From Patescibacteria group bacterium (GTDB taxonomy: Bacteria; Patescibacteriota; Minisyncoccia; Phycocordibacterales; UBA9973), in assembly GCA_038063535.1 (NCBI GenBank), contig JBBTUV010000002.1:4723-68722 (forward strand): DNA of 64,000 nucleotides, in the 5' to 3' direction. Positions 1,102 through 41,278 of this stretch are shown here, piece after piece. The stretch's first letter is position 1. Each line of letters begins with the position of its first letter. Both the position numbers and the translations under genes were made by a program. The notes under the pieces are model-generated. The model made no database searches. It worked only from the letters and a program-made list of their open reading frames with translations, and was not told where the DNA came from.

Positions 1102-3004
1102 CCCTAAGGGTATCGAGGTAATCTTTAATTTCTTTGTTGTCGGGCAAGAGGGCCAGGGCCGCCTCGGCATAGCCGACCGCGGCGGCGGCGTCGCCGAGAG
1201 CTTGATAATCGCGCGAGAGCGCGAGCTTGATGGCTGGATTCAGCGGATTGAGTTTCTCCGCGCTAGCATAAGCCTCAACCGCTTTGCTGAAGGCGCTGGG
1301 AACCCCTAAAGAGCCCAAGGTGTCGTAAACCGCGCCGAGCGTTTGGAAATTGACGTAATTATCTTTGTTGAACTCGGTCGCAGCCGTAGCCCCATTGATC
1401 GCTTCCTTGAGAACATTTTGAAGTTCCGCCTGCTCCTCAGTTGTGAGAGTAGTTTTCTCGGCCAGAGAATTGAGCTTGAGAAGATACACCTGTGAATAAG
1501 TGCGGAGGTAAAGATCGTTCGAGTAAAGTGAGACCGTTTTGGTAACGGCTGTTTCCGCCGAGGGAACAGTCGTTGCGGAAAGAGTTCTCGTAAAAAATGT
1601 CGCCGCCGCGAACCTTTCGAGATATTTGAAACCGAAAACAACCGAGGCTCCGAGGATTATAACCAGAAGTGAAATAGCAAAAAAACTTTTTCTCGGATCG
1701 ACGAAAAAGGAAATCTCGATCTTTCGCCCCGCGGAAAGCGCGAGAAATACCCCAGAGAGCACCACCGCCAGGATAAATAGCGCCGACCCGAGCGGGTAGA
1801 AAAAAGAAGCGGTAAAAAGGAAGAAGGAAGCGGTAAAGAAAAAAGTCCCTTCGGTACTAAAACTCTCCTTTAAGCCGGCAAGTAGTGAGCGCGCCCCGGC
1901 ATAAAGGAAAAAAGCGAAAAAGGAAAGCCAGGCCAAGATGCCCAGGGCTCCGACAGTCGAAAATATGGTCGGGATGGTTCCGACCCCGGAATCAAAAGTG
2001 GCATTCCAATAACTGGATGAGTTAATCTGTGCCGGCTTGTACATCGCCCAGGCATCGGCAAACCGATTCGGCCCCGCACCGAGCAGCGGGTCTTTAAGAA
2101 GTGCCGACTTCCCTACCGCAAAAGTGGAAGAGAACGTCGGGCGGACTTCTGGGCTTTGAACCCTCAACCTCTCCGGCAATACGCCGAAAATAAACTTTCC
2201 CGAAGTCAAAAAAAGGAGCGAGCAAAGGACAACGATAAAAGTCGCGAGCGGAAAGAAGTTCTTTCTCTCAACGCCGCCTTTTAAAAGAGAAAGTTTGTAG
2301 ATCAACACCAGAAGCGCAAAAACACCGACAAGCCCCCAAACCAGGGGCAAATTTACCAAAAAAACGAAGATAATGGAGAGAAGCGCCAGACCAGACACGA
2401 GGATTTTGTAAACTCTCTTAAGATCGAAAAATTCCAGAAGGAGCAGCGAGAGTATCGTTGTAAACCCCGCAAAAATGCCGAGGTTGTACCAAGAACCGAT
2501 GAGATTTCCGCTCTTGTCCCCCAAAATCCCGAAAGAAAGAATGGCAGGAATAAAAAATCGGAGGGCCTGGAAAACGAGCACCAAGGCAGAGGCGACGAGC
2601 AGGCCAAAAATTAGCTTTCGGGCCCAGATTTGCGACTGAAAAGATAGCGAGGCTAAAAGAAATGCCACAAATCCAGCGAGGATGAACCAGAAGCTCCCGA
2701 GATCGAAGATCGTACCGAAAAAAGACATACCGCGCGAGCTTGAAAAGAGAGCGGAAAGAAGCGTCACTAAAACCACGCCGAGCCCCGCCAGGAGAAGCGG
2801 CGAGCGCGGAGCGGACATTTTTCCGTCCGAAAATCGCGCCGCCAAGTAAAAAACCAGGGAAATGACAAGGCCCACAACAAAGAGGAGGCCCTTTGAAACC
2901 TCGACGGGCATTCTCGAGTAAGGGAGAAAAAAAATCGGAAGCAAGGAGAGAGTCAAAAGGAGGGACCAGCGGGAGATCTTATCGAGCGTCTGTGACCACA
3001 TCAT
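1085..3004 (-). CDS. O-antigen ligase-like (Wzy_C-type) polytopic membrane protein with a C-terminal TPR-like helical repeat region
   Basis: 639-aa ORF with more than 10 predicted TM helices, then a soluble C-terminus containing TPR-like repeats (AEKLNPLNPAIKLALSRDYQALGDAAAAVGYAEAALALLPDNKEIKDYL). It overlaps the murJ start by 17 nt, which suggests an operon. Family assignment is from domain architecture only. Confidence 0.45.
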   Translation of the reverse strand: MMWSQTLDKISRWSLLLTLSLLPIFFLPYSRMPVEVSKGLLFVVGLVISLVFYLAARFSDGKMSAPRSPLLLAGLGVVLVTLLSALFSSSRGMSFFGTIFDLGSFWFILAGFVAFLLASLSFQSQIWARKLIFGLLVASALVLVFQALRFFIPAILSFGILGDKSGNLIGSWYNLGIFAGFTTILSLLLLEFFDLKRVYKILVSGLALLSIIFVFLVNLPLVWGLVGVFALLVLIYKLSLLKGGVERKNFFPLATFIVVLCSLLFLTSGKFIFGVLPERLRVQSPEVRPTFSSTFAVGKSALLKDPLLGAGPNRFADAWAMYKPAQINSSSYWNATFDSGVGTIPTIFSTVGALGILAWLSFFAFFLYAGARSLLAGLKESFSTEGTFFFTASFFLFTASFFYPLGSALFILAVVLSGVFLALSAGRKIEISFFVDPRKSFFAISLLVIILGASVVFGFKYLERFAAATFFTRTLSATTVPSAETAVTKTVSLYSNDLYLRTYSQVYLLKLNSLAEKTTLTTEEQAELQNVLKEAINGATAATEFNKDNYVNFQTLGAVYDTLGSLGVPSAFSKAVEAYASAEKLNPLNPAIKLALSRDYQALGDAAAAVGYAEAALALLPDNKEIKDYLDTLRDGKAL

Positions 3005-3025
3005 TATATTATATAAGCAGTCGGG

Positions 3026-6000
3026 CTAAACTACAATGTTGATAAGTTTGCCGGGCACGAAAAACCTCTTTTTTATTTCTTTACCCTTGAGCCACTTTTC
3101 CATCTCCTGCAATCTTGTTGCAATATAAAAAGCGTCTTCCTCAGTTATGTTTCTTAGAGCCCTGAATTGAGACCGGACTTTGCCGTTTATCTGCACCACA
3201 TAAATTACCTCCCCAATGTCAACTTTGGAAATATCATATAGAGGCCAAGACTCCAGTTGAATGGACTTTTTGTTGCCTAAACTCTGCCAGAGTTCTTCCG
3301 TGATATACGGAGCAAAAGGTGAAAGTAATTTCAGGAAAACTTCAAATTCGTTTTTTGATATAGATTTGGCATCATTGATAAAAATCATGAGCGCAGAAAT
3401 TGCGGTATTAAATTTCATCACCTCAATATCCTCAGAGACCTTTTTGATCGTTTTGTGGAGCAGAGACACTGAAGAATTCGCAGCGGTGTAGGACCCACCG
3501 CGTACTCGCGGAAGGGTTAAGCCGGAAGAATTTTTTAGTGTCTCTGCAATCTTCCAAACTTTTTCGAGAAATCTCCGCGGGCCGATGATCGCCTCTTCGC
3601 TCCAGGGAATCGCCTGGTCGAAGGGCCCCATGAACATCTCATATAGACGCAAGGTGTCCGCGCCGTAGCGCTTTACAATATCGTCGGGGTTAATGGTATT
3701 CCCCTTTGATTTCGACATTTTCTCCCCTCCTTCGGCCAAAATAAGCCCGTGAGAGGTTCTTTTTTGATAAGGCTCGCTGGTGGGCACCAGGCCGAGGTCG
3801 TAGAGAAATTTGTGCCAGAAACGCGAATACAAGAGGTGGAGAGTGGTATGCTCCATGCCGCCGTTGTACCAGTTTACCGGCGTCCAGTACTTAAGTTTCC
3901 TGGGGTCGGCGAATTTTTTAAAATTTTTCGGATCAACATAACGAAGGTAATACCAGGAACTCCCGGCCCAGTTGGGCATGGTGTCGGTTTCCCGCTTCGC
4001 AGGACCTTTGCAGTCAGGACACTTCGTATTTACCCACTTTGAAATATTCGCGAGCGGCGATTCGCCGCTGTCCGTCGGCTGGTAATTTTTTACTTTCGGG
4101 AGCTCAACCGGCAAATCTTTCTCCGGCACGGGCACGTAGCCACACTTCGGGCAATGCACAATTGGTATCGGCTCACCCCAGTATCGCTGCCGCGAAAACA
4201 CCCAGTCCCGCAACTTGAAAGTGGTCTTTTCCTTTCCACCGACAAACCTCACGATTTCCTTTTTTGCCTCTTCTGAATCCATGCCGTCGAATTGCCCTGA
4301 ATTTGCCATAACCCCTTCGCCAGTATAAATATTTTCGGAATTATTTAATGGCTTCCAGGTGAATAATCTCCAGATGTGCGAGGTGGATTCGTCATAAACA
4401 AACTTTTCAACTTCCTTGCGATTTACCCAGTGTACCTCGTGTTTTTCTTTTTCTTCCTCTACAACTTCTTCTCGTTTATCACTTTGCAATTCAAAATAAA
4501 GCCCGTGAAAATGTGCGAAACGATTTACTTGTTTAGGATTGTGATAAAATTTGCTGTGATATTTTCCTAATTCCTTAATAAATTTTAGATCTGTGTACCC
4601 TGTCTCTTCTCGAACTTCCATTCGAGCAGCTTGTTCGGGGGTCTGGCCTTCTTCAATCCCACCGGTAACAAAAGTTCGCCAATCAACTTTTTTCCATTGC
4701 AAGCAGAGATATTTATCTTCCTGCCAATGTTTTACAATTACATCCACTGCGTTGCGTTCTACAAATGGTAACCCTTCACGGGGCTTAGATTGTTCAGTTT
4801 TATCCACCAGAACTTGCTCAATTACTTCACTATTTGGCAAACTGTATTTCTTCGCAAATTCATAGTCGCGCTCGTCGTGCGCCGGTACCGCCATAATCGC
4901 TCCGGTACCGTAATGCGGAAGCACATAGTCGGCGATCCAAACCGGAATTTCTTCTTTGTTTGCGGGGTTTATTGCCCTTACGCCTTTTAATTCCACCCCT
5001 GTTTTTGCTTTATTTTCCGCCGTTCTTTCAATTTCTGTTTTCCTCTTCGCTACTACAGTATACTGTAGTGCCTCCTCTCGGTTTGAAGTTTTTTCTAAAA
5101 GATTTTTAACAAGCGGATGCTCGGGTGCCAGCACTAAATAGGTTGCGCCGAATATGGTGTCGGGGCGGGTAGTGAAGACCTTAATAGAATCAACCCCTCC
5201 CAAACCCTCCCCGAAGGAGAGGGCCTTGGCGACAGCGCTTGAAACTTCATTCTTCTTTTGAAACACCTCATCATTTGTAAAACGAAGGATCCTGTAGCCC
5301 AGCTGATCTAATATCTTGGTCCTTTCCTCGTCCTCATTTTCTTGGTAATCATGGATGTCGCCATCGATTTCAATGACAAGCTTCTTCTCAAGACATACAA
5401 AATCAGCTATAAAGCGATCAATGATATGTTGTCTTCTGAAGTGGTATTGAATTGCGTTCCGGCGCAATAAATCCCAAACTGTTTTTTCTCCCTCGGTTGG
5501 ATTTTTCCTCATTTCTAAGGCTCGGGCTTGCAGGGTTCGCCATAATTCGGGACGAGTAGTAAAAAATCTAGGCATTTCCCCCTCTCCTTCGGGGAGGGCT
5601 GGGGAGGGGTTTTTAATTTCAAATTCAATCTCCGCGCCCTCGCTCTTCCCTATCCAATTACGTTGCGCGAGTTTTATCTGCGGCAGGTAATCGACGGTGT
5701 CTAGGTCTTTGTCGAGCCGCTCGGCGTACTTGGTAATCGCGAGCATCCATTGTTCTTTTTCGCGCTTCTCGACTAGGGCACCACAACGTTCGCAGCAGCC
5801 GTTTACAACTTCTTCGTTGGCAAGTCCTATTTTATCCTTTGGGCACCAATTGATGACTGCTTTTGCTTTATACGCCAGTCCTTTTTTCAAAAACTGCAAA
5901 AATATCCACTGCGTCCATTTGTAATATTTGGGATCAGTTGTGTTCACCTCGTGAGACCAGTCAAAAGACATACCGAGCGATTTGAATTGCTTGCGAAAAT

Positions 6001-6322
6001 TATCGGTATTCTTTTTAGTAATGAGCGCCGGTTGTTTGCCGGTTTTGATGGCGAAGTTTTCAGTCGGAAGTCCAAAAGCATCCCAGCCGATCGGGTAAAG
6101 CACGTTGTAGCCCTCCATGCGGCGCTTGCGCGAGATTATATCCATCGCCGTGTAGCCCCGCACATGGCCAGTGTGCAGGCCATCGGCGGAAGGATACGGA
6201 AACTCCATCAGGGAGTAGTATTTTTTCTTTTTGTCAAAATCCCGAGCGGCAGAGAGTTTTTTATTTTTCTCCCAGTATGCCTGCCATTTCTTTTCTATTT
6301 TCTTATGGTCATAACTCCCCAT
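3026..6322 (-). CDS. leuS: Leucyl-tRNA synthetase carrying two in-frame domain insertions (DUF559 endonuclease-fold and NUDIX)
   Basis: HTGHVRGYTAMDIISR (HIGH motif), KMSKSKGN, TTRPDT and GTGAIMAVPAHDERDYEFAKKY editing-domain motifs, and LRDWVFSRQRYWGEPIPIV. The likely start is the M of MGSYDHKKIEKKWQAYWEKNK at 6322, because the ORF-track start at 6418 would overlap the upstream gene's stop. Total 1130/1098 aa versus about 800-900 for a typical LeuRS. Confidence 0.9.
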   Translation of the reverse strand: MGSYDHKKIEKKWQAYWEKNKKLSAARDFDKKKKYYSLMEFPYPSADGLHTGHVRGYTAMDIISRKRRMEGYNVLYPIGWDAFGLPTENFAIKTGKQPALITKKNTDNFRKQFKSLGMSFDWSHEVNTTDPKYYKWTQWIFLQFLKKGLAYKAKAVINWCPKDKIGLANEEVVNGCCERCGALVEKREKEQWMLAITKYAERLDKDLDTVDYLPQIKLAQRNWIGKSEGAEIEFEIKNPSPALPEGEGEMPRFFTTRPELWRTLQARALEMRKNPTEGEKTVWDLLRRNAIQYHFRRQHIIDRFIADFVCLEKKLVIEIDGDIHDYQENEDEERTKILDQLGYRILRFTNDEVFQKKNEVSSAVAKALSFGEGLGGVDSIKVFTTRPDTIFGATYLVLAPEHPLVKNLLEKTSNREEALQYTVVAKRKTEIERTAENKAKTGVELKGVRAINPANKEEIPVWIADYVLPHYGTGAIMAVPAHDERDYEFAKKYSLPNSEVIEQVLVDKTEQSKPREGLPFVERNAVDVIVKHWQEDKYLCLQWKKVDWRTFVTGGIEEGQTPEQAARMEVREETGYTDLKFIKELGKYHSKFYHNPKQVNRFAHFHGLYFELQSDKREEVVEEEKEKHEVHWVNRKEVEKFVYDESTSHIWRLFTWKPLNNSENIYTGEGVMANSGQFDGMDSEEAKKEIVRFVGGKEKTTFKLRDWVFSRQRYWGEPIPIVHCPKCGYVPVPEKDLPVELPKVKNYQPTDSGESPLANISKWVNTKCPDCKGPAKRETDTMPNWAGSSWYYLRYVDPKNFKKFADPRKLKYWTPVNWYNGGMEHTTLHLLYSRFWHKFLYDLGLVPTSEPYQKRTSHGLILAEGGEKMSKSKGNTINPDDIVKRYGADTLRLYEMFMGPFDQAIPWSEEAIIGPRRFLEKVWKIAETLKNSSGLTLPRVRGGSYTAANSSVSLLHKTIKKVSEDIEVMKFNTAISALMIFINDAKSISKNEFEVFLKLLSPFAPYITEELWQSLGNKKSIQLESWPLYDISKVDIGEVIYVVQINGKVRSQFRALRNITEEDAFYIATRLQEMEKWLKGKEIKKRFFVPGKLINIVV
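4349..4801 (-). other. In-frame NUDIX hydrolase domain inserted into the leuS editing (CP1) region
   Basis: Nudix box GGIEEGQTPEQAARMEVREETGY (G-x5-E-x7-REVxEETG) inside leuS, between AKKYSLPNSEVIEQVL and GVMANSGQFDGM. That position is a loop of the editing domain in canonical LeuRS. The encoding DNA is conspicuously AT/poly-purine rich relative to the rest of leuS. Confidence 0.6.
5180..5605 (-). mobile_element. In-frame DUF559 (Vsr / very-short-patch-repair endonuclease-like fold) module inside leuS, bounded by ~32-bp GC-rich terminal inverted repeats
   Basis: Protein segment LWRTLQARALEMRKNPTEGEKTVWDLLRRNAIQYHFRRQHIIDRFIADFVCLEKKLVIEIDGDIHDYQENEDEERTKILDQLGYRILRFTNDEV has the DUF559 hallmarks (FRRQ, DF.C, IE.DG..H, R-D..L...G...LRF.N). 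It is inserted exactly between the catalytic core (..IEFEIKN) and the TTRPDT start of CP1. The nucleotide flanks aacccctcccaaaccctccccgaaggagaggg (5192..5223) and ccccctctccttcggggagggctggggagggg (5577..5609) are near-perfect inverted copies. The interior is visibly more AT-rich than the flanking leuS sequence. The FTTRP peptide occurs on both sides (RFFTTRPEL and KVFTTRPDT). Confidence 0.6.
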
Positions 6323-6329
6323 TTGCAGT

Positions 6330-7367
6330 TTAAAGAGGCTTCGGGTACGGCGGATAGAGATCTTTATCGATCGTGCGTTCGAAGCATGTGCGGCCGGCCT
6401 GGTGGTCCCAGGATTCATTCATGCCTCCCCCGGGGCTGGGATACGGATATGAGACCGCCATATCCCTGCCCTCCATCATCGGCATGGGGTAAATTGGTCC
6501 GCCGGAATATTCACGCCAGCCTTTCGGTATCGGAAGTGCGAAAGTCGCACAGAGCTCAAAGGTAAGCGGGCTCTTCACGGCATATTCATATTTCTCCCCT
6601 TTCTCGAATTCCGGTGGAACAGGCAAGGACCAGCCCGAGAGCGGGTTCGCAAGCTCGGATACATCCTTCGGCAGCTTTTGTTTCAGCTGCCAGTAATTGA
6701 CTACCTGATATTGAATATTTTGTAGATCCCCCACTCGCCTGTCGTCAAGGCGAAGCTGTCTTTGTTGCCAGGGGCTCCCCATCACAATAAAACTCAAGAC
6801 GATCGCAAGAAGCACGATGAGAGAAGATTTTATGGCACCCCAAAGTCCTACTGAGAAGCCCCAGATCTTCTTCATACCCCGAAGTTCGAAAATAAAATTA
6901 AATCCGACAAACGCAGCAGTGAGGAGCGCAATGGCAACTTTCAGGATGAAACGGGTGGTTATCTCCCCGGCGATGAAGTAACGCACAAGGGTGACAAGAT
7001 CGATGACTATGACGAGCGCGGAGAGAAATAAAATTATGTAGATGACCCACTTGCGGATAGTTTCATCAAGCCGGCCGACGCCGCGCGCGTAAAGTTTCTT
7101 CCAGAAATACGCGAGAAGAAGAAAAACCGGGAAGAAGATTATGAGCGTCGAGAGCGCCCCGCGAATCCCTTCGTAATCATAAGAGTTAAAGCCGTACTGG
7201 TAAGTAGCGTTCAAGACATCCGGGAAACGCTTGTTCAGGGTTTCGAAAACGAGATTCAGGAACGAAACGACGGTAGTAACGAGTGTAATTAGCACCCCGA
7301 GCGACAAAAAGAAAAAACCGATATTAAACCTGGGCGTATTACCGCCTAAATTTTCTTGTGTTTCCAT
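6330..7367 (-). CDS. Polytopic membrane protein with a C-terminal Pro/Tyr-rich soluble tail (DUF5671-like architecture), hypothetical
   Basis: 345-aa ORF with about 6 hydrophobic helices in the N-terminal 200 aa and a soluble tail with PYPSPGGG and YPPYPKPL. Its stop at 6330 lies just upstream of the preferred leuS start. Confidence 0.4.
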   Translation of the reverse strand: METQENLGGNTPRFNIGFFFLSLGVLITLVTTVVSFLNLVFETLNKRFPDVLNATYQYGFNSYDYEGIRGALSTLIIFFPVFLLLAYFWKKLYARGVGRLDETIRKWVIYIILFLSALVIVIDLVTLVRYFIAGEITTRFILKVAIALLTAAFVGFNFIFELRGMKKIWGFSVGLWGAIKSSLIVLLAIVLSFIVMGSPWQQRQLRLDDRRVGDLQNIQYQVVNYWQLKQKLPKDVSELANPLSGWSLPVPPEFEKGEKYEYAVKSPLTFELCATFALPIPKGWREYSGGPIYPMPMMEGRDMAVSYPYPSPGGGMNESWDHQAGRTCFERTIDKDLYPPYPKPL

Positions 7368-21254: not shown

Positions 21255-21326
21255 AAAAACACATAAAATTATATCATTTTTCCCTTTCCAATTGAAAAAA
21301 TAATGTGGATAGGTCATAATGAATGG

Positions 21327-22055
21327 ATGACAAACGAGGAGGTTCGAAGATACCAAGACCCTGAAACCGGCAAGCAGTGGTTTTCGATGGTTGACATAAT
21401 TGCTTTAACTACCTCCAGTAAAAATCCGCAGAATTACTGGAAAGTTCTAAAAAGTCGTTTAAAGAAAAGCGCTCCCGAGTTGGTTACAAAGTGTAACCAA
21501 CTTAAAATGAAAGCAAAAGATGGGAAATATTACCTCACCGACGCCGCCGATGTGGAAACCCTGACCGAGATCATCAAACTGATTCCGGGGGCAAATGTGC
21601 ATAGCCTCGAGGAATGCGTAGCACCGTTTGTAACAACCCCTCCAACCCCCACCCCCTCTTCTGTTTCCCCCAAAGGGGGAGAAGAATTACCCTCTCCTTC
21701 GGAGAGGGTTAGGGAGAGGTCAGAAGTCCCGACGTCCGAAGGAGTCGGGACCCCGACCGAAAGCGTCGGGGCTGAACTCCTCCTCGACGCTTACGAATCC
21801 GGAAATTATATTTTCATCGAAGCCTTCATCGCCGGCGTTTCATTGGAAGATTTGAACATAGACGTTGAGCCGAGAAAAATAATCATCGAGGGAAAAAGAA
21901 CGAGATCGGGAGACGATTATTTCACACAAGAATTACAATGGCTTTCCTTCTCCCGCACACTCGATCTCCCCGCTCCCGTTGACACGGAGAGAGCGGAAGC
22001 AACTGAAAGGGACGGGCATCTTACGATCCGTCTTCCGAAGGTGATTGTTCAGTAG
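21327..22055 (+). CDS. Hsp20/alpha-crystallin domain protein with an N-terminal Bro-N-like domain and a linker encoded by GC-rich palindromic elements
   Basis: C-terminal NYIFIEAFIAGVSLEDLNIDVEPRKIIIEGKRT...FSRTLDLPAPVDTERAEATERDGHLTIRLPK is a clear alpha-crystallin domain. The N-terminal GKQWFSMVDIIALTTSSKNPQNYWKVLKSRL...DGKYYLTDAADVETLTEIIKLIP loosely resembles Bro-N (.PWFVAKDVA..LG..NP....). The linker TTPPTPTPSSVSPKGGEELPSPSERVRERSEVPTSEGVGTPTESVG is encoded by the palindromic element at 21636..21771. Start taken as the M at 21327; the ORF-track start is 21303. Confidence 0.55.
   Translation: MTNEEVRRYQDPETGKQWFSMVDIIALTTSSKNPQNYWKVLKSRLKKSAPELVTKCNQLKMKAKDGKYYLTDAADVETLTEIIKLIPGANVHSLEECVAPFVTTPPTPTPSSVSPKGGEELPSPSERVRERSEVPTSEGVGTPTESVGAELLLDAYESGNYIFIEAFIAGVSLEDLNIDVEPRKIIIEGKRTRSGDDYFTQELQWLSFSRTLDLPAPVDTERAEATERDGHLTIRLPKVIVQ
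21636..21771. repeat. Cluster of GC-rich palindromic units inserted in-frame: a core-less derivative of the leuS DUF559-element TIRs plus two cccgac-N7-gtcggg hairpins
   Basis: aacccctccaacccccacccc (like the leuS left TIR start), tttcccccaaaggggga hairpin, ccctctccttcggagaggg (like the leuS right TIR), then gtcccgacgtccgaaggagtcgggac and cccgaccgaaagcgtcgggg hairpins. All visible directly. Confidence 0.7.
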
Positions 22056-40732: not shown

Positions 40733-41278
40733 TTGCCTAAAAAAATTCTACAAAAGGAAAATAAGATTTTGCGCGAGGTTGCCAAAGAAGTACCTCTGGT
40801 CGAGATCGGTAAACCAAAAACTAAAAAAATTCTGAAAGAAATGTCCCAGGCGCTCGCGAGGGAGTCCGACGGCGTCGCGCTCGCCGCACCGCAGATCGGA
40901 TATCCGCTTCGGATTTTCTTGGTAACGGGGAAAATTTTTATGAAAGCCCCGACGCCCAAAGGGGTCGGGGTCCCGACCGCAAGCGTCGGGAAAAAACCCA
41001 AAGATCTTGTATTCATAAATCCGAAAATCACGAAGCTCTCACGCGAAAAAGCCTGGTTGCCGGAAGGCTGCCTCTCCGTCCGGCCATTCTACGGCAAAAC
41101 CCATCGCTCGAAGAAGGCAACGATAGCGGCCTATGATGAGAGGGGTAAAAAAATCACCAGAGGCGCCTCGGGCCTATTGGCGCAGATCTTCCAGCATGAG
41201 ACGGACCACCTTGAGGGAATTCTTTTTATCGATCATGCGAAGGACATATATGAAGAGAAACCCGAAATCAAAACTTAG
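40733..41278 (+). CDS. def: Peptide deformylase with an element-encoded insertion loop
   Basis: GVALAAPQIG (motif 1), EGCLSV (motif 2), QHETDHLEGILF (motif 3). There are 25 residues (KIFMKAPTPKGVGVPTASVGKKPKD) between motif 1 and LVFINP where canonical Def has about 7. Confidence 0.85.
   Translation: MPKKILQKENKILREVAKEVPLVEIGKPKTKKILKEMSQALARESDGVALAAPQIGYPLRIFLVTGKIFMKAPTPKGVGVPTASVGKKPKDLVFINPKITKLSREKAWLPEGCLSVRPFYGKTHRSKKATIAAYDERGKKITRGASGLLAQIFQHETDHLEGILFIDHAKDIYEEKPEIKT
40947..40990. repeat. Two tandem GC-rich hairpins (ccccgac-gcccaaagg-ggtcgggg; tcccgac-cgcaagc-gtcggga) inserted in-frame in def
   Basis: Visible directly. Same unit type as 21722..21771. Confidence 0.75.

What the first reader, a model, noticed from the sequence alone, without database searches (positions are those of the whole stretch)
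3026..6418. leuS interrupted in-frame by a TIR-bounded DUF559 endonuclease-fold element and by a NUDIX domain
The leuS ORF is continuous but 250-300 aa longer than canonical LeuRS because of two foreign modules.

(1) At 5180..5605 a complete DUF559 / Vsr-like domain (FRRQ...IEIDGDIHDY...RILRFTNDEV) sits exactly at the catalytic-core / CP1 junction. At the nucleotide level it is bounded by roughly 32-bp near-identical inverted repeats (aacccctcccaaaccctccccgaaggagaggg and ccccctctccttcggggagggctggggagggg), each itself a hairpin. Its interior is more AT-rich than leuS. The FTTRP peptide is duplicated at both junctions, a footprint resembling a target-site duplication. This is the architecture of a miniature DNA transposon, or homing-type element, that has inserted without breaking the reading frame of an essential gene.

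(2) At 4349..4801 a full Nudix box (GGIEEGQTPEQAARMEVREETGY) is inserted in a loop of the editing domain, encoded by unusually purine/AT-rich DNA.

Neither fusion is, to my knowledge, a described LeuRS architecture. Intein-like behaviour is excluded because there are no splice-junction residues. The encoded protein presumably tolerates both insertions as surface loops, or has co-opted them, for example Nudix-mediated hydrolysis of mis-activated adenylates or Ap4A.
Basis: partly seen in the sequence, partly recalled or inferred. Interest (0 to 1): 0.85.

Follow-up and report, generated by a model that had tools for sequence, protein, structure and literature searches.

The report
In-frame endonuclease element inside leuS
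The essential leucyl-tRNA synthetase gene of this Paceibacteria (CPR) bacterium carries, translated in frame, a 420-bp selfish element (a DUF559/Vsr-like nuclease gene between GC-hairpin inverted repeats) that belongs to a widespread and apparently undescribed family living inside many housekeeping proteins, plus a NUDIX domain that is a lineage-wide LeuRS accessory.

Summary
leuS (3026..6322, minus strand) is one uninterrupted ORF with a DUF559 domain (Pfam E=6.5e-32) and a NUDIX domain (E=5.4e-14). The DUF559 part is a discrete 420-nt (140-codon) unit, 5192..5611, bounded by 32-nt inverted repeats.

Relatives show it is mobile:
- It is scattered over the Paceibacteria LeuRS tree, always at the same pre-CP1 hairpin.
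- Its terminal repeats are 90-100% identical in DNA between genomes whose interiors and exons are about 70-83% identical.
- Its dS is lower than that of the surrounding leuS.
- Close relatives of the same nuclease, with the same kind of repeats, sit in frame inside RecG, MetH, acetyl-CoA synthetase, TGT, MiaB, RecJ, UvrA, UvrD, ValRS, MetRS and others, and also lie free in intergenic DNA.

The "FTTRP" duplication is a family motif, not a target-site duplication; no duplication exists.

The NUDIX insert has no repeats. It is present in all 114 sampled relatives except seven, mostly with a canonical Nudix box, but its sequence does not track the LeuRS tree.

Most likely the element is a nuclease-driven selfish element tolerated as an extruded surface domain. 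The movement mechanism (homing versus transposition) is inferred, not shown.

The parts
3026..6322 (-). leuS coding sequence (1098 aa from the likely start; the mechanical ORF extends to 6418)
   Evidence: TIGR00396 975 bits; homologue N-termini. HIGH and KMSKS are present. It is the only LeuRS match in the window. Synteny YchF - methyltransferase - DUF5671 - leuS - TPR protein is shared with relatives.
5192..5611 (-). The complete inserted element: left repeat, DUF559 ORF and right repeat. It is 420 nt = 140 codons, in frame with both leuS flanks.
   Evidence: The empty allele in the closest LeuRS relative (P0006/L049) reads EFEVK-EIKDK-IKVFTT at this place.
5580..5611 (.). Terminal inverted repeat, 5' arm in gene orientation (AACCCCTCCCCAGCCCTCCCCGAAGGAGAGGG, translated NPSPALPEGEG)
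   Evidence: It is 90-97% identical in DNA to the same arm in P0120, P0064 and P0002, whose interiors are about 71% identical to this one. pLDDT is below 50 in the model.
5192..5223 (.). Terminal inverted repeat, 3' arm in gene orientation (CCCTCTCCTTCGGGGAGGGTTTGGGAGGGGTT, translated LSFGEGLGGV)
   Evidence: It is 90-100% identical in DNA across relatives. pLDDT is below 50.
5219..5575 (-). DUF559 / Vsr-like PD-(D/E)xK nuclease module, including its N-terminal extension (MPRFFTTRPELW...)
   Evidence: Pfam PF04480 at 110 bits. PDB 3HRL E=1.5e-16 and I-Bth0305I (3R3P) E=0.008. Family-invariant D58, E69, H75, D82 and others are retained. pLDDT is about 80-86. dN/dS is 0.08-0.20 among relatives.
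4328..4765 (-). NUDIX domain insert (146 codons) in the C-terminal loop of the CP1 editing domain
   Evidence: Pfam PF00293 at 52.8 bits. Boundaries come from the empty allele P0067 and coordinates. pLDDT is 90-95. No flanking repeats. Nudix box is GGIEEGQTPEQAARMEVREETGY.
5156..5173 (-). TTRPDT editing-site motif of LeuRS, 5 codons downstream of the element. This is the conserved sequence next to the insertion hotspot.
   Evidence: F383, T384, T385, R386, D388 and T389 are invariant in alignment A1.
21690..21720 (+). Solo copy of the repeat unit (28/31 identical to the 3' arm), read in frame in the linker of ORF 21303..22055
   Evidence: The hairpin has z = -2.5.

Best explanation
Window 5192..5611 is one copy of a widespread family of small selfish DNA elements. 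Each element is a roughly 120-aa DUF559 (Vsr-like PD-(D/E)xK) nuclease gene flanked by GC-rich, hairpin-containing terminal inverted repeats whose sequence is open in all reading frames. The element can lie in intergenic DNA or inside a gene.

Inside genes, only copies that are a multiple of three in length and in frame survive. They are then translated as part of the host protein. The repeat arms become short disordered Pro/Gly/Glu linkers, and the nuclease folds as an extra domain pushed out of a surface loop.

Here the element occupies the variable beta-hairpin just before the TTRPDT motif, where the catalytic core meets the CP1 editing domain. LeuRS keeps all its catalytic motifs.

Shown:
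- the anatomy of the element;
- its patchy, same-site distribution in LeuRS;
- DNA-level conservation of the repeats;
- purifying selection on the nuclease;
- younger synonymous divergence than the host gene;
- presence of closely related copies in many unrelated host genes and in intergenic DNA.

Inferred:
- the nuclease nicks or cuts empty sites (or the repeat hairpins), and repair copies the element in, giving homing between leuS alleles and rarer jumps to new sites;
- the insert stays in the mature enzyme.

The NUDIX insert (4328..4765) is a separate matter. It is an accessory domain common to Paceibacteria LeuRS, exchanged between lineages as a cassette without repeats, and probably an active hydrolase in most lineages.
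For: Anatomy.

Distribution in LeuRS:
- 24 of 121 LeuRS carry DUF559, all at one site, scattered over the core tree.
- For 14 of the 24, the nearest sampled relative is an empty allele, for example P0001 / P0033 at 92% core identity.
- Close LeuRS can carry different nuclease lineages: P0067 / P0045 have core 81% and DUF559 51%.
- Divergent LeuRS can carry identical ones: P0064 / P0114 have core 86% and DUF559 plus flanks 100%. This is a 600-nt tract of 99% identity inside a mosaic gene.

Sequence evolution:
- Repeats are 90-100% identical in DNA, against 70-84% for the interior and 68-83% for exons.
- dN/dS is 0.08-0.20.
- dS is 0.63-1.0 for the element, against 1.1 to over 2.5 or saturated for flanking leuS.
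- One decayed copy exists (P0011, core deletion).

Family-wide evidence:
- Of the 80 best metagenome loci, 37 are inside LeuRS, 34 inside 16 other ORF families and 9 are free.
- Host domains are split by the insert.
- All copies are flanked by hairpin-derived peptides in any of three frames.
- In named genomes the hosts include LeuRS, ValRS, MetRS, MetH and UvrA of Bacteroidota.
- Inverted repeats flank 20/37 and 30/79 copies, against 1/256 and 0/301 shifted control windows.
- Free-standing CPR copies have the same repeats.
- The nuclease tree interleaves hosts.
- A solo repeat lies in another ORF of this window, and there are nested solo repeats in relatives.
Against: - No nuclease activity, cleavage site or movement has been observed. 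Everything is comparative.
- No target-site duplication and no recognisable transposase chemistry were found, so classical transposition is unsupported. Homing does not by itself explain why terminal repeats are conserved.
- The trees are neighbour-joining on short or saturated alignments. dS comparisons are near saturation and could be affected by the different codon composition of the insert.
- The hit lists are biased by the queries. LeuRS hits were ranked with a query that has both inserts, and metagenome loci with a LeuRS-derived profile.
- A profile search of the protein database returned almost only short proteins, so the true share of embedded copies in the whole family is unknown.
- The P0064 / P0114 comparison shows a generally mosaic leuS rather than a clean co-conversion tract.
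- Only one full copy and one solo repeat are visible in this 64-kb window.
Confidence: 0.7

Rival explanations
1. The GC hairpins are REP/REPIN-like repeats moved by another enzyme, for example a RAYT-type Y1 transposase. On this view DUF559 is only a passenger trapped between two of them. The insert in leuS would then be a composite of two independently inserted hairpins plus cargo.
For: - Y1_Tnp (PF01797) genes sit a few genes from leuS in two relatives.
- Hairpin units occur solo, in tandem, nested in each other and nested inside DUF559.
- 86 of 222 hairpins in the fetched loci are not next to a DUF559 gene, including 18 close pairs.
- Other hairpin families occupy the same LeuRS site in 'empty' alleles.
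Against: - The DUF559-repeat association holds across phyla and is strong: 20/37 against 1/256, 30/79 against 0/301, and about 18-fold hairpin enrichment next to DUF559.
- No Y1_Tnp is present in this window.
- Repeat arms are in inverted orientation, with the asymmetric extension always outward. This fits one unit rather than two independent insertions.
- The nuclease is under purifying selection.
Confidence: 0.15
2. DUF559 is a domesticated, vertically inherited accessory domain of Paceibacteria LeuRS, for example an RNA- or DNA-binding or moonlighting nuclease module, that has been lost many times. On this view it is not a currently selfish element.
For: - dN/dS of 0.08-0.20 shows the fold is maintained.
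- It is always at one site.
- LeuRS of this lineage accepts many other functional domains at the same site, including NUDIX, alpha/beta hydrolase, HAD and Ham1.
Against: - The same nuclease with the same repeats is found inside at least 20 unrelated host families and in intergenic DNA.
- The repeats are conserved at synonymous positions.
- Different nuclease lineages occur in close LeuRS, and identical ones in divergent LeuRS.
- dS is lower than that of the host.
- A decayed copy exists.
Confidence: 0.1
3. The insert is removed before the enzyme is made. Routes would be a novel intein-like reaction, RNA splicing using the long stem the two repeats can form, or ribosomal bypassing. Mature LeuRS would then be canonical.
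For: The two arms are 94% complementary and could pair in the mRNA. GC-hairpin mobile elements that are bypassed by ribosomes are known in yeast mitochondria (my own recollection, not checked here).
Against: - No Rfam family matches 2800..6700 even at E<=1.
- There is no Hint or intein domain, and no Cys/Ser/Thr at the downstream junction (the sequence reads ...GGV|DSIK).
- All 71 embedded copies keep the frame through both junctions without a stop. That is unnecessary if the segment were removed.
- The model places it as a folded, extruded domain.
Confidence: 0.04
4. Assembly chimera or frameshift artefact.
For: None found.
Against: The same architecture appears in dozens of independent assemblies from different samples. 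The ORF is continuous, and gene order around leuS is conserved.
Confidence: 0.01

Closest known systems
Inteins carrying a homing-endonuclease domain
   Same: Selfish elements inserted in frame at conserved sites of essential or housekeeping proteins (aaRS, helicases, repair and cofactor enzymes). They have a patchy distribution, occupy the same site in divergent alleles, and encode a nuclease.
   Different: There is no Hint/splicing domain and no splice-junction residues (and the sequence itself). The element is bounded by DNA inverted repeats. It is presumably retained in the mature protein, and it also lives in intergenic DNA.
Rickettsia palindromic elements (RPE) and other in-frame prokaryotic MITEs (discussed in PMC1779305 and PMC10969869; details from my own knowledge)
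   Same: [quoted passage not shown] The solo 31-39-nt repeat units seen here (window 21690-21720; nested copies in relatives) behave this way.
   Different: RPEs encode no protein of their own. This element is autonomous-looking, with a conserved nuclease gene between the repeats. The sequences are unrelated, and it occurs in many phyla rather than one genus.
Vsr-like 'EDxHD' homing endonucleases (I-Bth0305I; fractured genes) - PMC2677866, PMC3239194
   Same: Same nuclease superfamily fold. The match to 3R3P is weak but detectable (E=0.008). Those enzymes are proven or proposed to drive homing into conserved genes.
   Different: Those enzymes are larger, have NUMOD/HTH DNA-binding regions, and sit in group I introns, inteins or between split-intein halves. 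They are not translated through into the host protein, and no terminal inverted repeats are described for them. The best structural relative here is the uncharacterised DUF559 protein 3HRL (E=1.5e-16).
REP / RAYT (REPIN) systems
   Same: An enzyme gene is bracketed by inverted copies of a short hairpin repeat that is also scattered through the genome as singlets and doublets.
   Different: The enzyme there is an IS200/IS605-type Y1 transposase, not a PD-(D/E)xK nuclease. REPs are extragenic, not translated. No Y1 gene is present in this window.
In-frame non-intein LAGLIDADG endonuclease and 'ShiLan' domain in actinophage methylases (PMC9957025)
   Same: A nuclease or domain inserted in frame without splicing machinery. 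It forms its own domain in predicted structures and has a patchy distribution, with insert divergence lower than host divergence.
   Different: That case involves a single host gene family in phages, a different nuclease family and no terminal repeats. Its authors found no strong evidence for transfer of the endonuclease itself.

Membership tests
Bacterial leucyl-tRNA synthetase (TIGR00396) | Full-length HMM match above the curated cut-off, plus HIGH and KMSKS signature motifs and the CP1 editing motif | tested here: met
   975 bits against 548. HTGH, KMSKS and TTRPDT are present.
DUF559 (PF04480) / Vsr-like PD-(D/E)xK nucleases | HMM match above the gathering score, with family-invariant acidic and His residues retained | tested here: met
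   110 bits against 20.6. 3HRL E=1.5e-16. D58, E69, H75 and D82 are invariant in 18 LeuRS-borne copies, including this one.
DUF559 (PF04480) / Vsr-like PD-(D/E)xK nucleases | Endonuclease activity | not testable with these tools
   No biochemical data exist for this subfamily. Activity is inferred from the fold and from purifying selection.
EDxHD homing endonucleases (I-Bth0305I type) | Significant similarity of the catalytic domain | tested here: inconclusive
   3R3P E=0.008, 19.6 bits over 77 residues.
EDxHD homing endonucleases (I-Bth0305I type) | N-terminal NUMOD/HTH DNA-binding region, and residence in an intron, an intein or between split inteins | tested here: not met
   Pfam finds no NUMOD or Hint domain. 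There is no Rfam intron. The ORF reads through both junctions.
Intein | Hint splicing domain and nucleophilic junction residues (C/S/T at +1, terminal HN) | tested here: not met
   No intein or Hint family in Pfam. The junctions read ...EIK|NPSP and ...GGV|DSIK.
TIR transposon / MITE | Terminal inverted repeats | tested here: met
   32 nt, 94%. The same holds for relatives, with controls.
TIR transposon / MITE | Target-site duplication and a DDE-type (or other known) transposase | tested here: not met
   No direct repeats flank 29 well-defined elements. The only ORF is DUF559.
TIR transposon / MITE | Multiple copies in one genome | tested here: inconclusive
   Only 64 kb of this genome is available. 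It holds one full element and one solo repeat.
REP/RAYT (REPIN) | The repeat-flanked gene is a Y1 (IS200/IS605-like) transposase | tested here: not met
   The flanked gene is DUF559. There is no Y1_Tnp in the window, although Y1_Tnp genes exist near leuS in two relatives.
Rickettsia-palindromic-element-like in-frame repeats | Palindromic repeat inserted in frame in coding sequence, open in several frames | tested here: met
   The repeat arms are translated in three different frames in different hosts. A solo copy lies in ORF 21303..22055. Sequence relatedness to RPEs was not tested.
NUDIX hydrolases (PF00293) | HMM match above the gathering score | tested here: met
   52.8 bits against 21.1. 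Best PDB match is 2AZW, E=4.5e-5.
NUDIX hydrolases (PF00293) | Nudix box GX5EX7REUXEEXGU intact | tested here: inconclusive
   This copy has Q for the first E and M for the R, but keeps the three metal-binding Glu. Most relatives are canonical: E 81/115, R 83/115, E/E/E 115/109/115.

The most novel reading that the evidence does not exclude
DUF559 proteins, a very large family of unknown function, are the nucleases of a distinct and so far unnamed class of bacterial mobile element. The class would consist of hairpin-TIR-bounded mini-genes whose ends are open in every reading frame. This lets them colonise the interior of essential genes (aaRS, RecG, UvrA, UvrD, RecJ, MetH, ACS, TGT and others) as translated, non-splicing domain insertions. 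Functionally that would be an 'intein without splicing' and an autonomous counterpart of Rickettsia-type palindromic elements. The Vsr-like nuclease would possibly act on mispaired (T.G) hairpins extruded from its own repeats.
Probability: 0.4. Interest if true: 0.9.

Novelty: new variant of a known kind. Interest (0 to 1): 0.8.

Why it matters
- It would give a biological role to DUF559, one of the big 'unknown function' families. E. coli YcjD is a member.
- It would add a third way, besides inteins and introns, for a nuclease-encoding selfish element to live inside essential genes: simply being tolerated in the protein.
- Each insertion marks a naturally validated permissive site for domain insertion in enzymes such as LeuRS, RecG, MetH or ACS.
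- The nucleases may be new site- or structure-specific tools.
- The elements explain odd annotations such as 'leucyl-tRNA synthetase / very-short-patch-repair endonuclease', and over-long housekeeping genes in CPR and Bacteroidota genomes.
- Separately, Paceibacteria LeuRS appears as a scaffold that has repeatedly acquired hydrolase domains (NUDIX up to three times, Ham1, HAD, serine hydrolase). That hints at a coupling between aminoacylation and nucleotide or adenylate housekeeping in organisms with minimal metabolism.

Tried and rejected
- **FTTRP as target-site duplication:** rejected. It is a family motif, and no duplication flanks 29 elements.
- **Intron or ribozyme:** Rfam at E<=1 on 2800..6700 found nothing.
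- **Intein:** no splicing domain or junction residues.
- **Y1 transposase or a second DUF559 in the window:** none.
- **A genome flooded with hairpins:** not so. There are 9 perfect GC hairpins against 1-8 (mean about 3) in 10 shuffles, and hairpin energies of the two arms are not exceptional.
- **Repeats around the NUDIX insert:** none above chance.
- **Phage carriage:** the viral contig scan gave only 4 weak matches.
- **Genome-contig scan with the single protein:** it found no close LeuRS-borne CPR copy, only copies 33-50% identical, but these proved informative.
- **Protein-database searches with the DUF559 segment or profile:** these listed almost only short proteins, in contrast with the DNA-level scan. 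I could not resolve whether this reflects candidate selection, fragments from short contigs, or a truly larger free-standing population. Two short hits that JGI named 'LeuRS' are genuine intergenic free-standing copies.
- **P0064 / P0114 as a clean co-conversion tract:** only partly. The whole leuS is mosaic between two otherwise 95-98% identical genomes.
- **E. coli ycjD flanked on both sides by repeats:** not seen. There is only a repeat pair at or after its 3' end.
- **Literature:** The library does not cover subscription journals.

Full report
**1. What is in the window**

The minus-strand ORF 3026..6418 is uninterrupted. Its first 32 codons overlap the upstream gene (6330..7367). Homologues start at the equivalent of the Met at 6322 (consensus MKxYDHKKIEKKWQ), so leuS is taken as 3026..6322 (1098 aa).

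It matches the bacterial LeuRS model at 975 bits against a cut-off of 548, but in three stretches. It keeps HIGH (HTGH), KMSKS and the editing motif TTRPDT.

Pfam finds two extra domains:
- DUF559: 110 bits, E=6.5e-32.
- NUDIX: 52.8 bits, E=5.4e-14.

A 32-nt inverted repeat, 94% complementary, lies at 5192-5223 / 5580-5611. Its 19-nt core occurs three times in the window against 0.04 expected. The third copy is at 21690. From repeat end to repeat end is 420 nt, exactly 140 codons. These translate as NPSPALPEGEGE - MPRFF...DUF559...AKA - LSFGEGLGGV.

Third-position GC is 0.44 in the DUF559 part and 0.33 in NUDIX, against 0.56-0.57 in the N- and C-terminal LeuRS core. CP1 is also lower, at 0.455.

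Each repeat arm contains an 8-9 bp stem. Its folding energy is not better than that of shuffled sequence.

No Rfam family matches the region at E<=1.

**2. Who the relatives are**

The nearest proteins are LeuRS of Paceibacteria/Parcubacteria (Nomurabacteria, Taylorbacteria, 'Paceibacterota'). Gene order (YchF - methyltransferase - DUF5671 - leuS - TPR protein - MurJ) is shared. This is therefore the resident leuS. No second LeuRS match exists in the window.

**3. The insertion site is a hotspot**

I aligned the query with 120 homologues. In 43 of the 121 sequences there is an insert of at least 130 aa between GAEIEFxI(K) and (I)KVFTTRPDT. The contents differ:
- DUF559 between the peptides NPSPALPEGEGE and LSFGEGLGGV (24 sequences).
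- Alpha/beta hydrolase followed by DUF559, with a hairpin-derived peptide between and around the two modules in P0003 and P0004.
- A PF10706 nucleotidyltransferase plus DUF559.
- Hydrolase alone.
- Ham1-like.
- A NUDIX domain.

'Empty' alleles carry short odd peptides there, such as SPDVGRQGSPDVQRQ, that look like other GC hairpins.

The closest LeuRS relative of the query (P0006, 81% core identity) has the empty site EFEVK-EIKDK-IKVFTT in its DNA.

In the AlphaFold2 model (mean pLDDT 81.9), the two segments with pLDDT below 50 that lie in or beside the inserts are the repeat-encoded peptides (239-251 and 370-377). DUF559 (about 80-86) and NUDIX (90-95) are confident separate folds.

**4. Evidence that the DUF559 unit moves**

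(a) On a neighbour-joining tree of 862 core columns, the 24 DUF559-bearing LeuRS are scattered. For 14 of them the nearest sampled relative is an empty allele, for example P0001 / P0033 at 92%.

(b) Nuclease and host histories disagree:
- P0067 / P0045: core 81%, DUF559 51%.
- P0064 / P0114: core 86%, DUF559 plus about 25-30 flanking residues on each side 100%.

At the DNA level, the P0064 / P0114 pair has a roughly 600-nt tract of 99% identity. It sits within a leuS that is otherwise a mosaic of 77-98% segments, while neighbouring genes are 95-98% identical. This shows recombination in leuS but is not a clean co-conversion tract.

(c) Between genomes, identities are as follows:

| Region | DNA identity |
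|---|---|
| Repeat arms | 90-100% |
| DUF559 interior | 70-84% |
| Flanking exons | 68-83% |

The repeat arms are conserved even at synonymous positions and use CCC/GGG codons. The repeats are therefore constrained as nucleic acid.

(d) dN/dS of the interior is 0.08-0.20. Its dS (0.63-1.0) is lower than that of the flanking leuS segments (1.1 to over 2.5, or not computable) among four relatives. This suggests the element is younger than the alleles it sits in. The caveats are saturation and different composition.

(e) One copy (P0011) has lost the catalytic core, and two have E for D in the ExD motif. This is expected for a gain-decay-loss cycle.

**5. The element is not specific to LeuRS**

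Free-standing DUF559 proteins from many phyla end in the same kind of peptides (PLPEGEGE......LPFGEGRGGV). They also share the N-terminal motif (F/Y)xT(T/A)(N/D)P..(W/Y).

Inverted repeats flanking DUF559 copies, compared with shifted control windows:

| Set | Criterion | DUF559 copies | Controls |
|---|---|---|---|
| 44 loci from named genomes (Bacteroidota, Cyanobacteria, Alphaproteobacteria, Myxococcota, Ignavibacteriota, Chloroflexi, CPR) | repeat score (length minus twice the mismatches) of at least 17, within 250 nt | 20 of 37 testable | 1 of 256 |
| 80 best metagenome loci | repeat score at least 14 | 30 of 79 | 0 of 301 |

Of the best 80:
- 37 lie inside LeuRS.
- 34 lie inside other long ORFs, which fall into 16 families.
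- 9 are free-standing.

Pfam on representatives shows the following hosts. In several of them Pfam matches the host domain in two stretches, as expected if the insert splits it:
- RecG (7 loci, one site)
- Acetyl-CoA synthetase (4)
- MetH (4 loci, two sites)
- TPR-SpoIIE (3)
- TGT, MiaB-type radical-SAM enzymes, M23 peptidases and IcmF (2 each)
- RecJ, iPGM, HsdM, a Type ISP enzyme, IMPase, adenine deaminase and UvrD

In named Bacteroidota genomes the hosts are LeuRS (same pre-CP1 region), ValRS, MetRS, MetH and UvrA. There are also N-terminal fusions to IspF and HisA/F.

Every embedded copy is flanked by hairpin-derived peptides. These correspond to the three reading frames of the same kind of GC hairpin...PKGEG...PSRRGE and ...PSPKERG on the left, and LPFGEGLGG, LPSGEVGGA and PPSGGGG on the right.

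The nuclease tree interleaves hosts. For example, RecJ and iPGM copies fall among ACS copies, MiaB copies within M23 copies, and TGT, MetH and UvrD copies among LeuRS copies. This is a short alignment and low resolution.

Free-standing CPR copies between murG and gltX, or between ribBA and a carbohydrate kinase gene, have the same repeats.

No target-site duplication is visible next to 29 well-defined elements.

Across 1.15 Mb of fetched loci, 136 of 222 such hairpins lie within 150 nt of a DUF559 match. That region is about 8% of the sequence. The remaining 86 hairpins lie elsewhere, including 18 close pairs. Solo units are nested inside DUF559 itself in several relatives. One 31-nt solo unit, 28/31 identical to the 3' arm, is read in frame in ORF 21303..22055 of this window.

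**6. What kind of nuclease**

The best solved relative is the uncharacterised DUF559 protein 3HRL (E=1.5e-16). [quoted passage not shown]

That family is known from introns, inteins and 'fractured genes' (PMC2677866, PMC3239194). It has extra DNA-binding regions that are absent here.

**7. How it most likely works**

Shown: a discrete, repeat-bounded, nuclease-encoding unit that is polymorphic among alleles. It is conserved as DNA at its ends and as protein in its middle. It is able to reside in intergenic DNA or, in frame, inside many genes.

Inferred:
- The nuclease makes a break at an unoccupied site, or at hairpins extruded by the repeats.
- Recombinational repair then copies the unit. Within one gene family this appears as homing to a fixed site.
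- The strongly conserved repeats may serve as recognition sites and/or as homology for copying into places that already hold a hairpin pair.
- Selection then removes every intragenic copy that is not 3n long, not stop-free, or not in a permissive loop. This explains the all-frames-open repeat sequence and the surface-loop locations.

The stems carry a T.G (3' arm) / C.A (5' arm) mispair at the same position in this and two related copies. This is intriguing for a Vsr-like fold, but it is only a lead.

I rate 'selfish mobile element tolerated in frame' at about 0.85. I rate the specific homing-type mechanism at about 0.4-0.5.

Rivals:
- The hairpins are moved by a Y1 transposase and DUF559 is a passenger. 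Y1_Tnp genes lie near leuS in two relatives, but there is none in this window.
- A domesticated accessory domain.
- Removal at the RNA or protein level.
- An assembly artefact.

**8. The NUDIX insert**

Against an allele that lacks it (P0067...PKEGMP|YSGEGI...), the insert is 4328..4765 (146 codons). It sits in the C-terminal loop of CP1, between LPxxxVIE and YxGxGxxxNSGxFxG. No repeats flank it.

An exhaustive search found 557 clusters (at 50% identity) with E<=1e-3. Most are of LeuRS length, and some are free-standing proteins of about 150-190 aa at 40-54% identity. All eight long hits I examined are LeuRS, with one to three NUDIX copies, sometimes plus Ham1 or a serine hydrolase.

Among the 121 aligned LeuRS, NUDIX is at this site in all but seven. 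That list is biased by the query.

The Nudix box is canonical in most relatives: GG(I/V)ExGE....AAxREIxEETGY. This copy has Q for the first Glu and M for the Arg, but keeps the three metal-binding Glu.

NUDIX identity does not track LeuRS identity (r=0.23):

| Compared with query | NUDIX identity | LeuRS core identity |
|---|---|---|
| P0101 | 76% | 67% |
| P0006 | 40% | 81% |

The domain is therefore lineage-wide but has been swapped between lineages. Another relative (P0063) carries an unrelated insert at the same place. Function is untested. The best PDB matches are generic MutT/Nudix and Ap4A hydrolases.

**9. Comparison with what is known, and novelty**

The element behaves like an intein in where it lives, like a Rickettsia palindromic element in how it is tolerated, like a REP/RAYT unit in its anatomy, and probably like a homing endonuclease gene in how it spreads. 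It fails a defining test of each of these families (see the membership table).

The nearest published precedent I found is a non-intein LAGLIDADG domain and the 'ShiLan' domain inserted in actinophage methylases (PMC9957025). That case involves one host family, no repeats, and no demonstrated transfer of the nuclease.

Seven completed full-text searches found no description of TIR-bounded DUF559 elements, of DUF559 inside housekeeping genes, or of NUDIX-bearing LeuRS. The library lacks most subscription journals, so prior description cannot be excluded.

I file it as a new variant of known kinds of selfish element. There is a substantial chance that it deserves to be treated as a class of its own.

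Noticed in passing
window 4328-4765 and relatives P0005, P0010, P0030, P0050, P0066, P0074, P0085, P0180-P0182, P0242: Paceibacteria LeuRS repeatedly carries inserted hydrolase-type domains at several sites: NUDIX (one to three copies per protein), alpha/beta or serine hydrolase, HAD, Ham1/ITPase, and a PF10706 nucleotidyltransferase. NUDIX cassettes do not follow the LeuRS tree.
   Followed up: partly
window 21640-21780 (ORF 21303..22055) and 40971-40991: The linker of ORF 21303..22055 contains four consecutive in-frame GC hairpins. One is the solo TIR unit. Two belong to another family (CCCGAC..GTCGGG), which recurs at 40971. That family's peptide signature (SPDVGRQ) also sits at the LeuRS hotspot in 'empty' relatives (P0033, P0015, P0040).
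   Followed up: partly
L049:1-675 and L051:1954-2607: IS200/IS605-type Y1 transposase (PF01797, RAYT-like) genes lie a few genes from leuS in two relatives. None is present in this window. They could be an alternative mobiliser of the hairpin repeats.
   Followed up: partly
window 5205-5223 and 5580-5598; same positions in L045, L053: The hairpin stems of the two repeat arms carry a T.G mispair (3' arm) and a C.A mispair (5' arm) at the same stem position in several copies. This is notable because the nuclease fold is that of the T:G-mismatch endonuclease Vsr.
   Followed up: no
L046 vs L048 (leuS 3001-5850): Two genomes whose neighbouring genes are 95-98% identical have a strongly mosaic leuS, with segments of 77-82% next to segments of 98-100%. 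This indicates frequent recombination within this gene.
   Followed up: partly
L137:3217-3241 and 3396-3420 (E. coli K-12, ycjD 3' end): The E. coli DUF559 gene ycjD has a pair of ACCCTCTCCCC / GGGAGAGGGT-type inverted GC repeats at and after its 3' end. They resemble the repeat family described here, but are on one side of the gene only.
   Followed up: no
L051:8547-8594 and L052:12007-12071: Close pairs of the same kind of hairpin, without a DUF559 gene between them, lie inside coding regions of relatives: the 3' part of leuS in P0004's contig, and a tRNA methyltransferase gene. They are possible non-autonomous (MITE-like) derivatives or excision footprints.
   Followed up: no
P0064, P0055, P0114, P0120 (relatives): These DUF559-bearing LeuRS lack not only NUDIX but also the C-terminal part of CP1, including the NSGxFxG segment. 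They also read ADDxRD instead of AHDERD, suggesting a remodelled editing domain.
   Followed up: no
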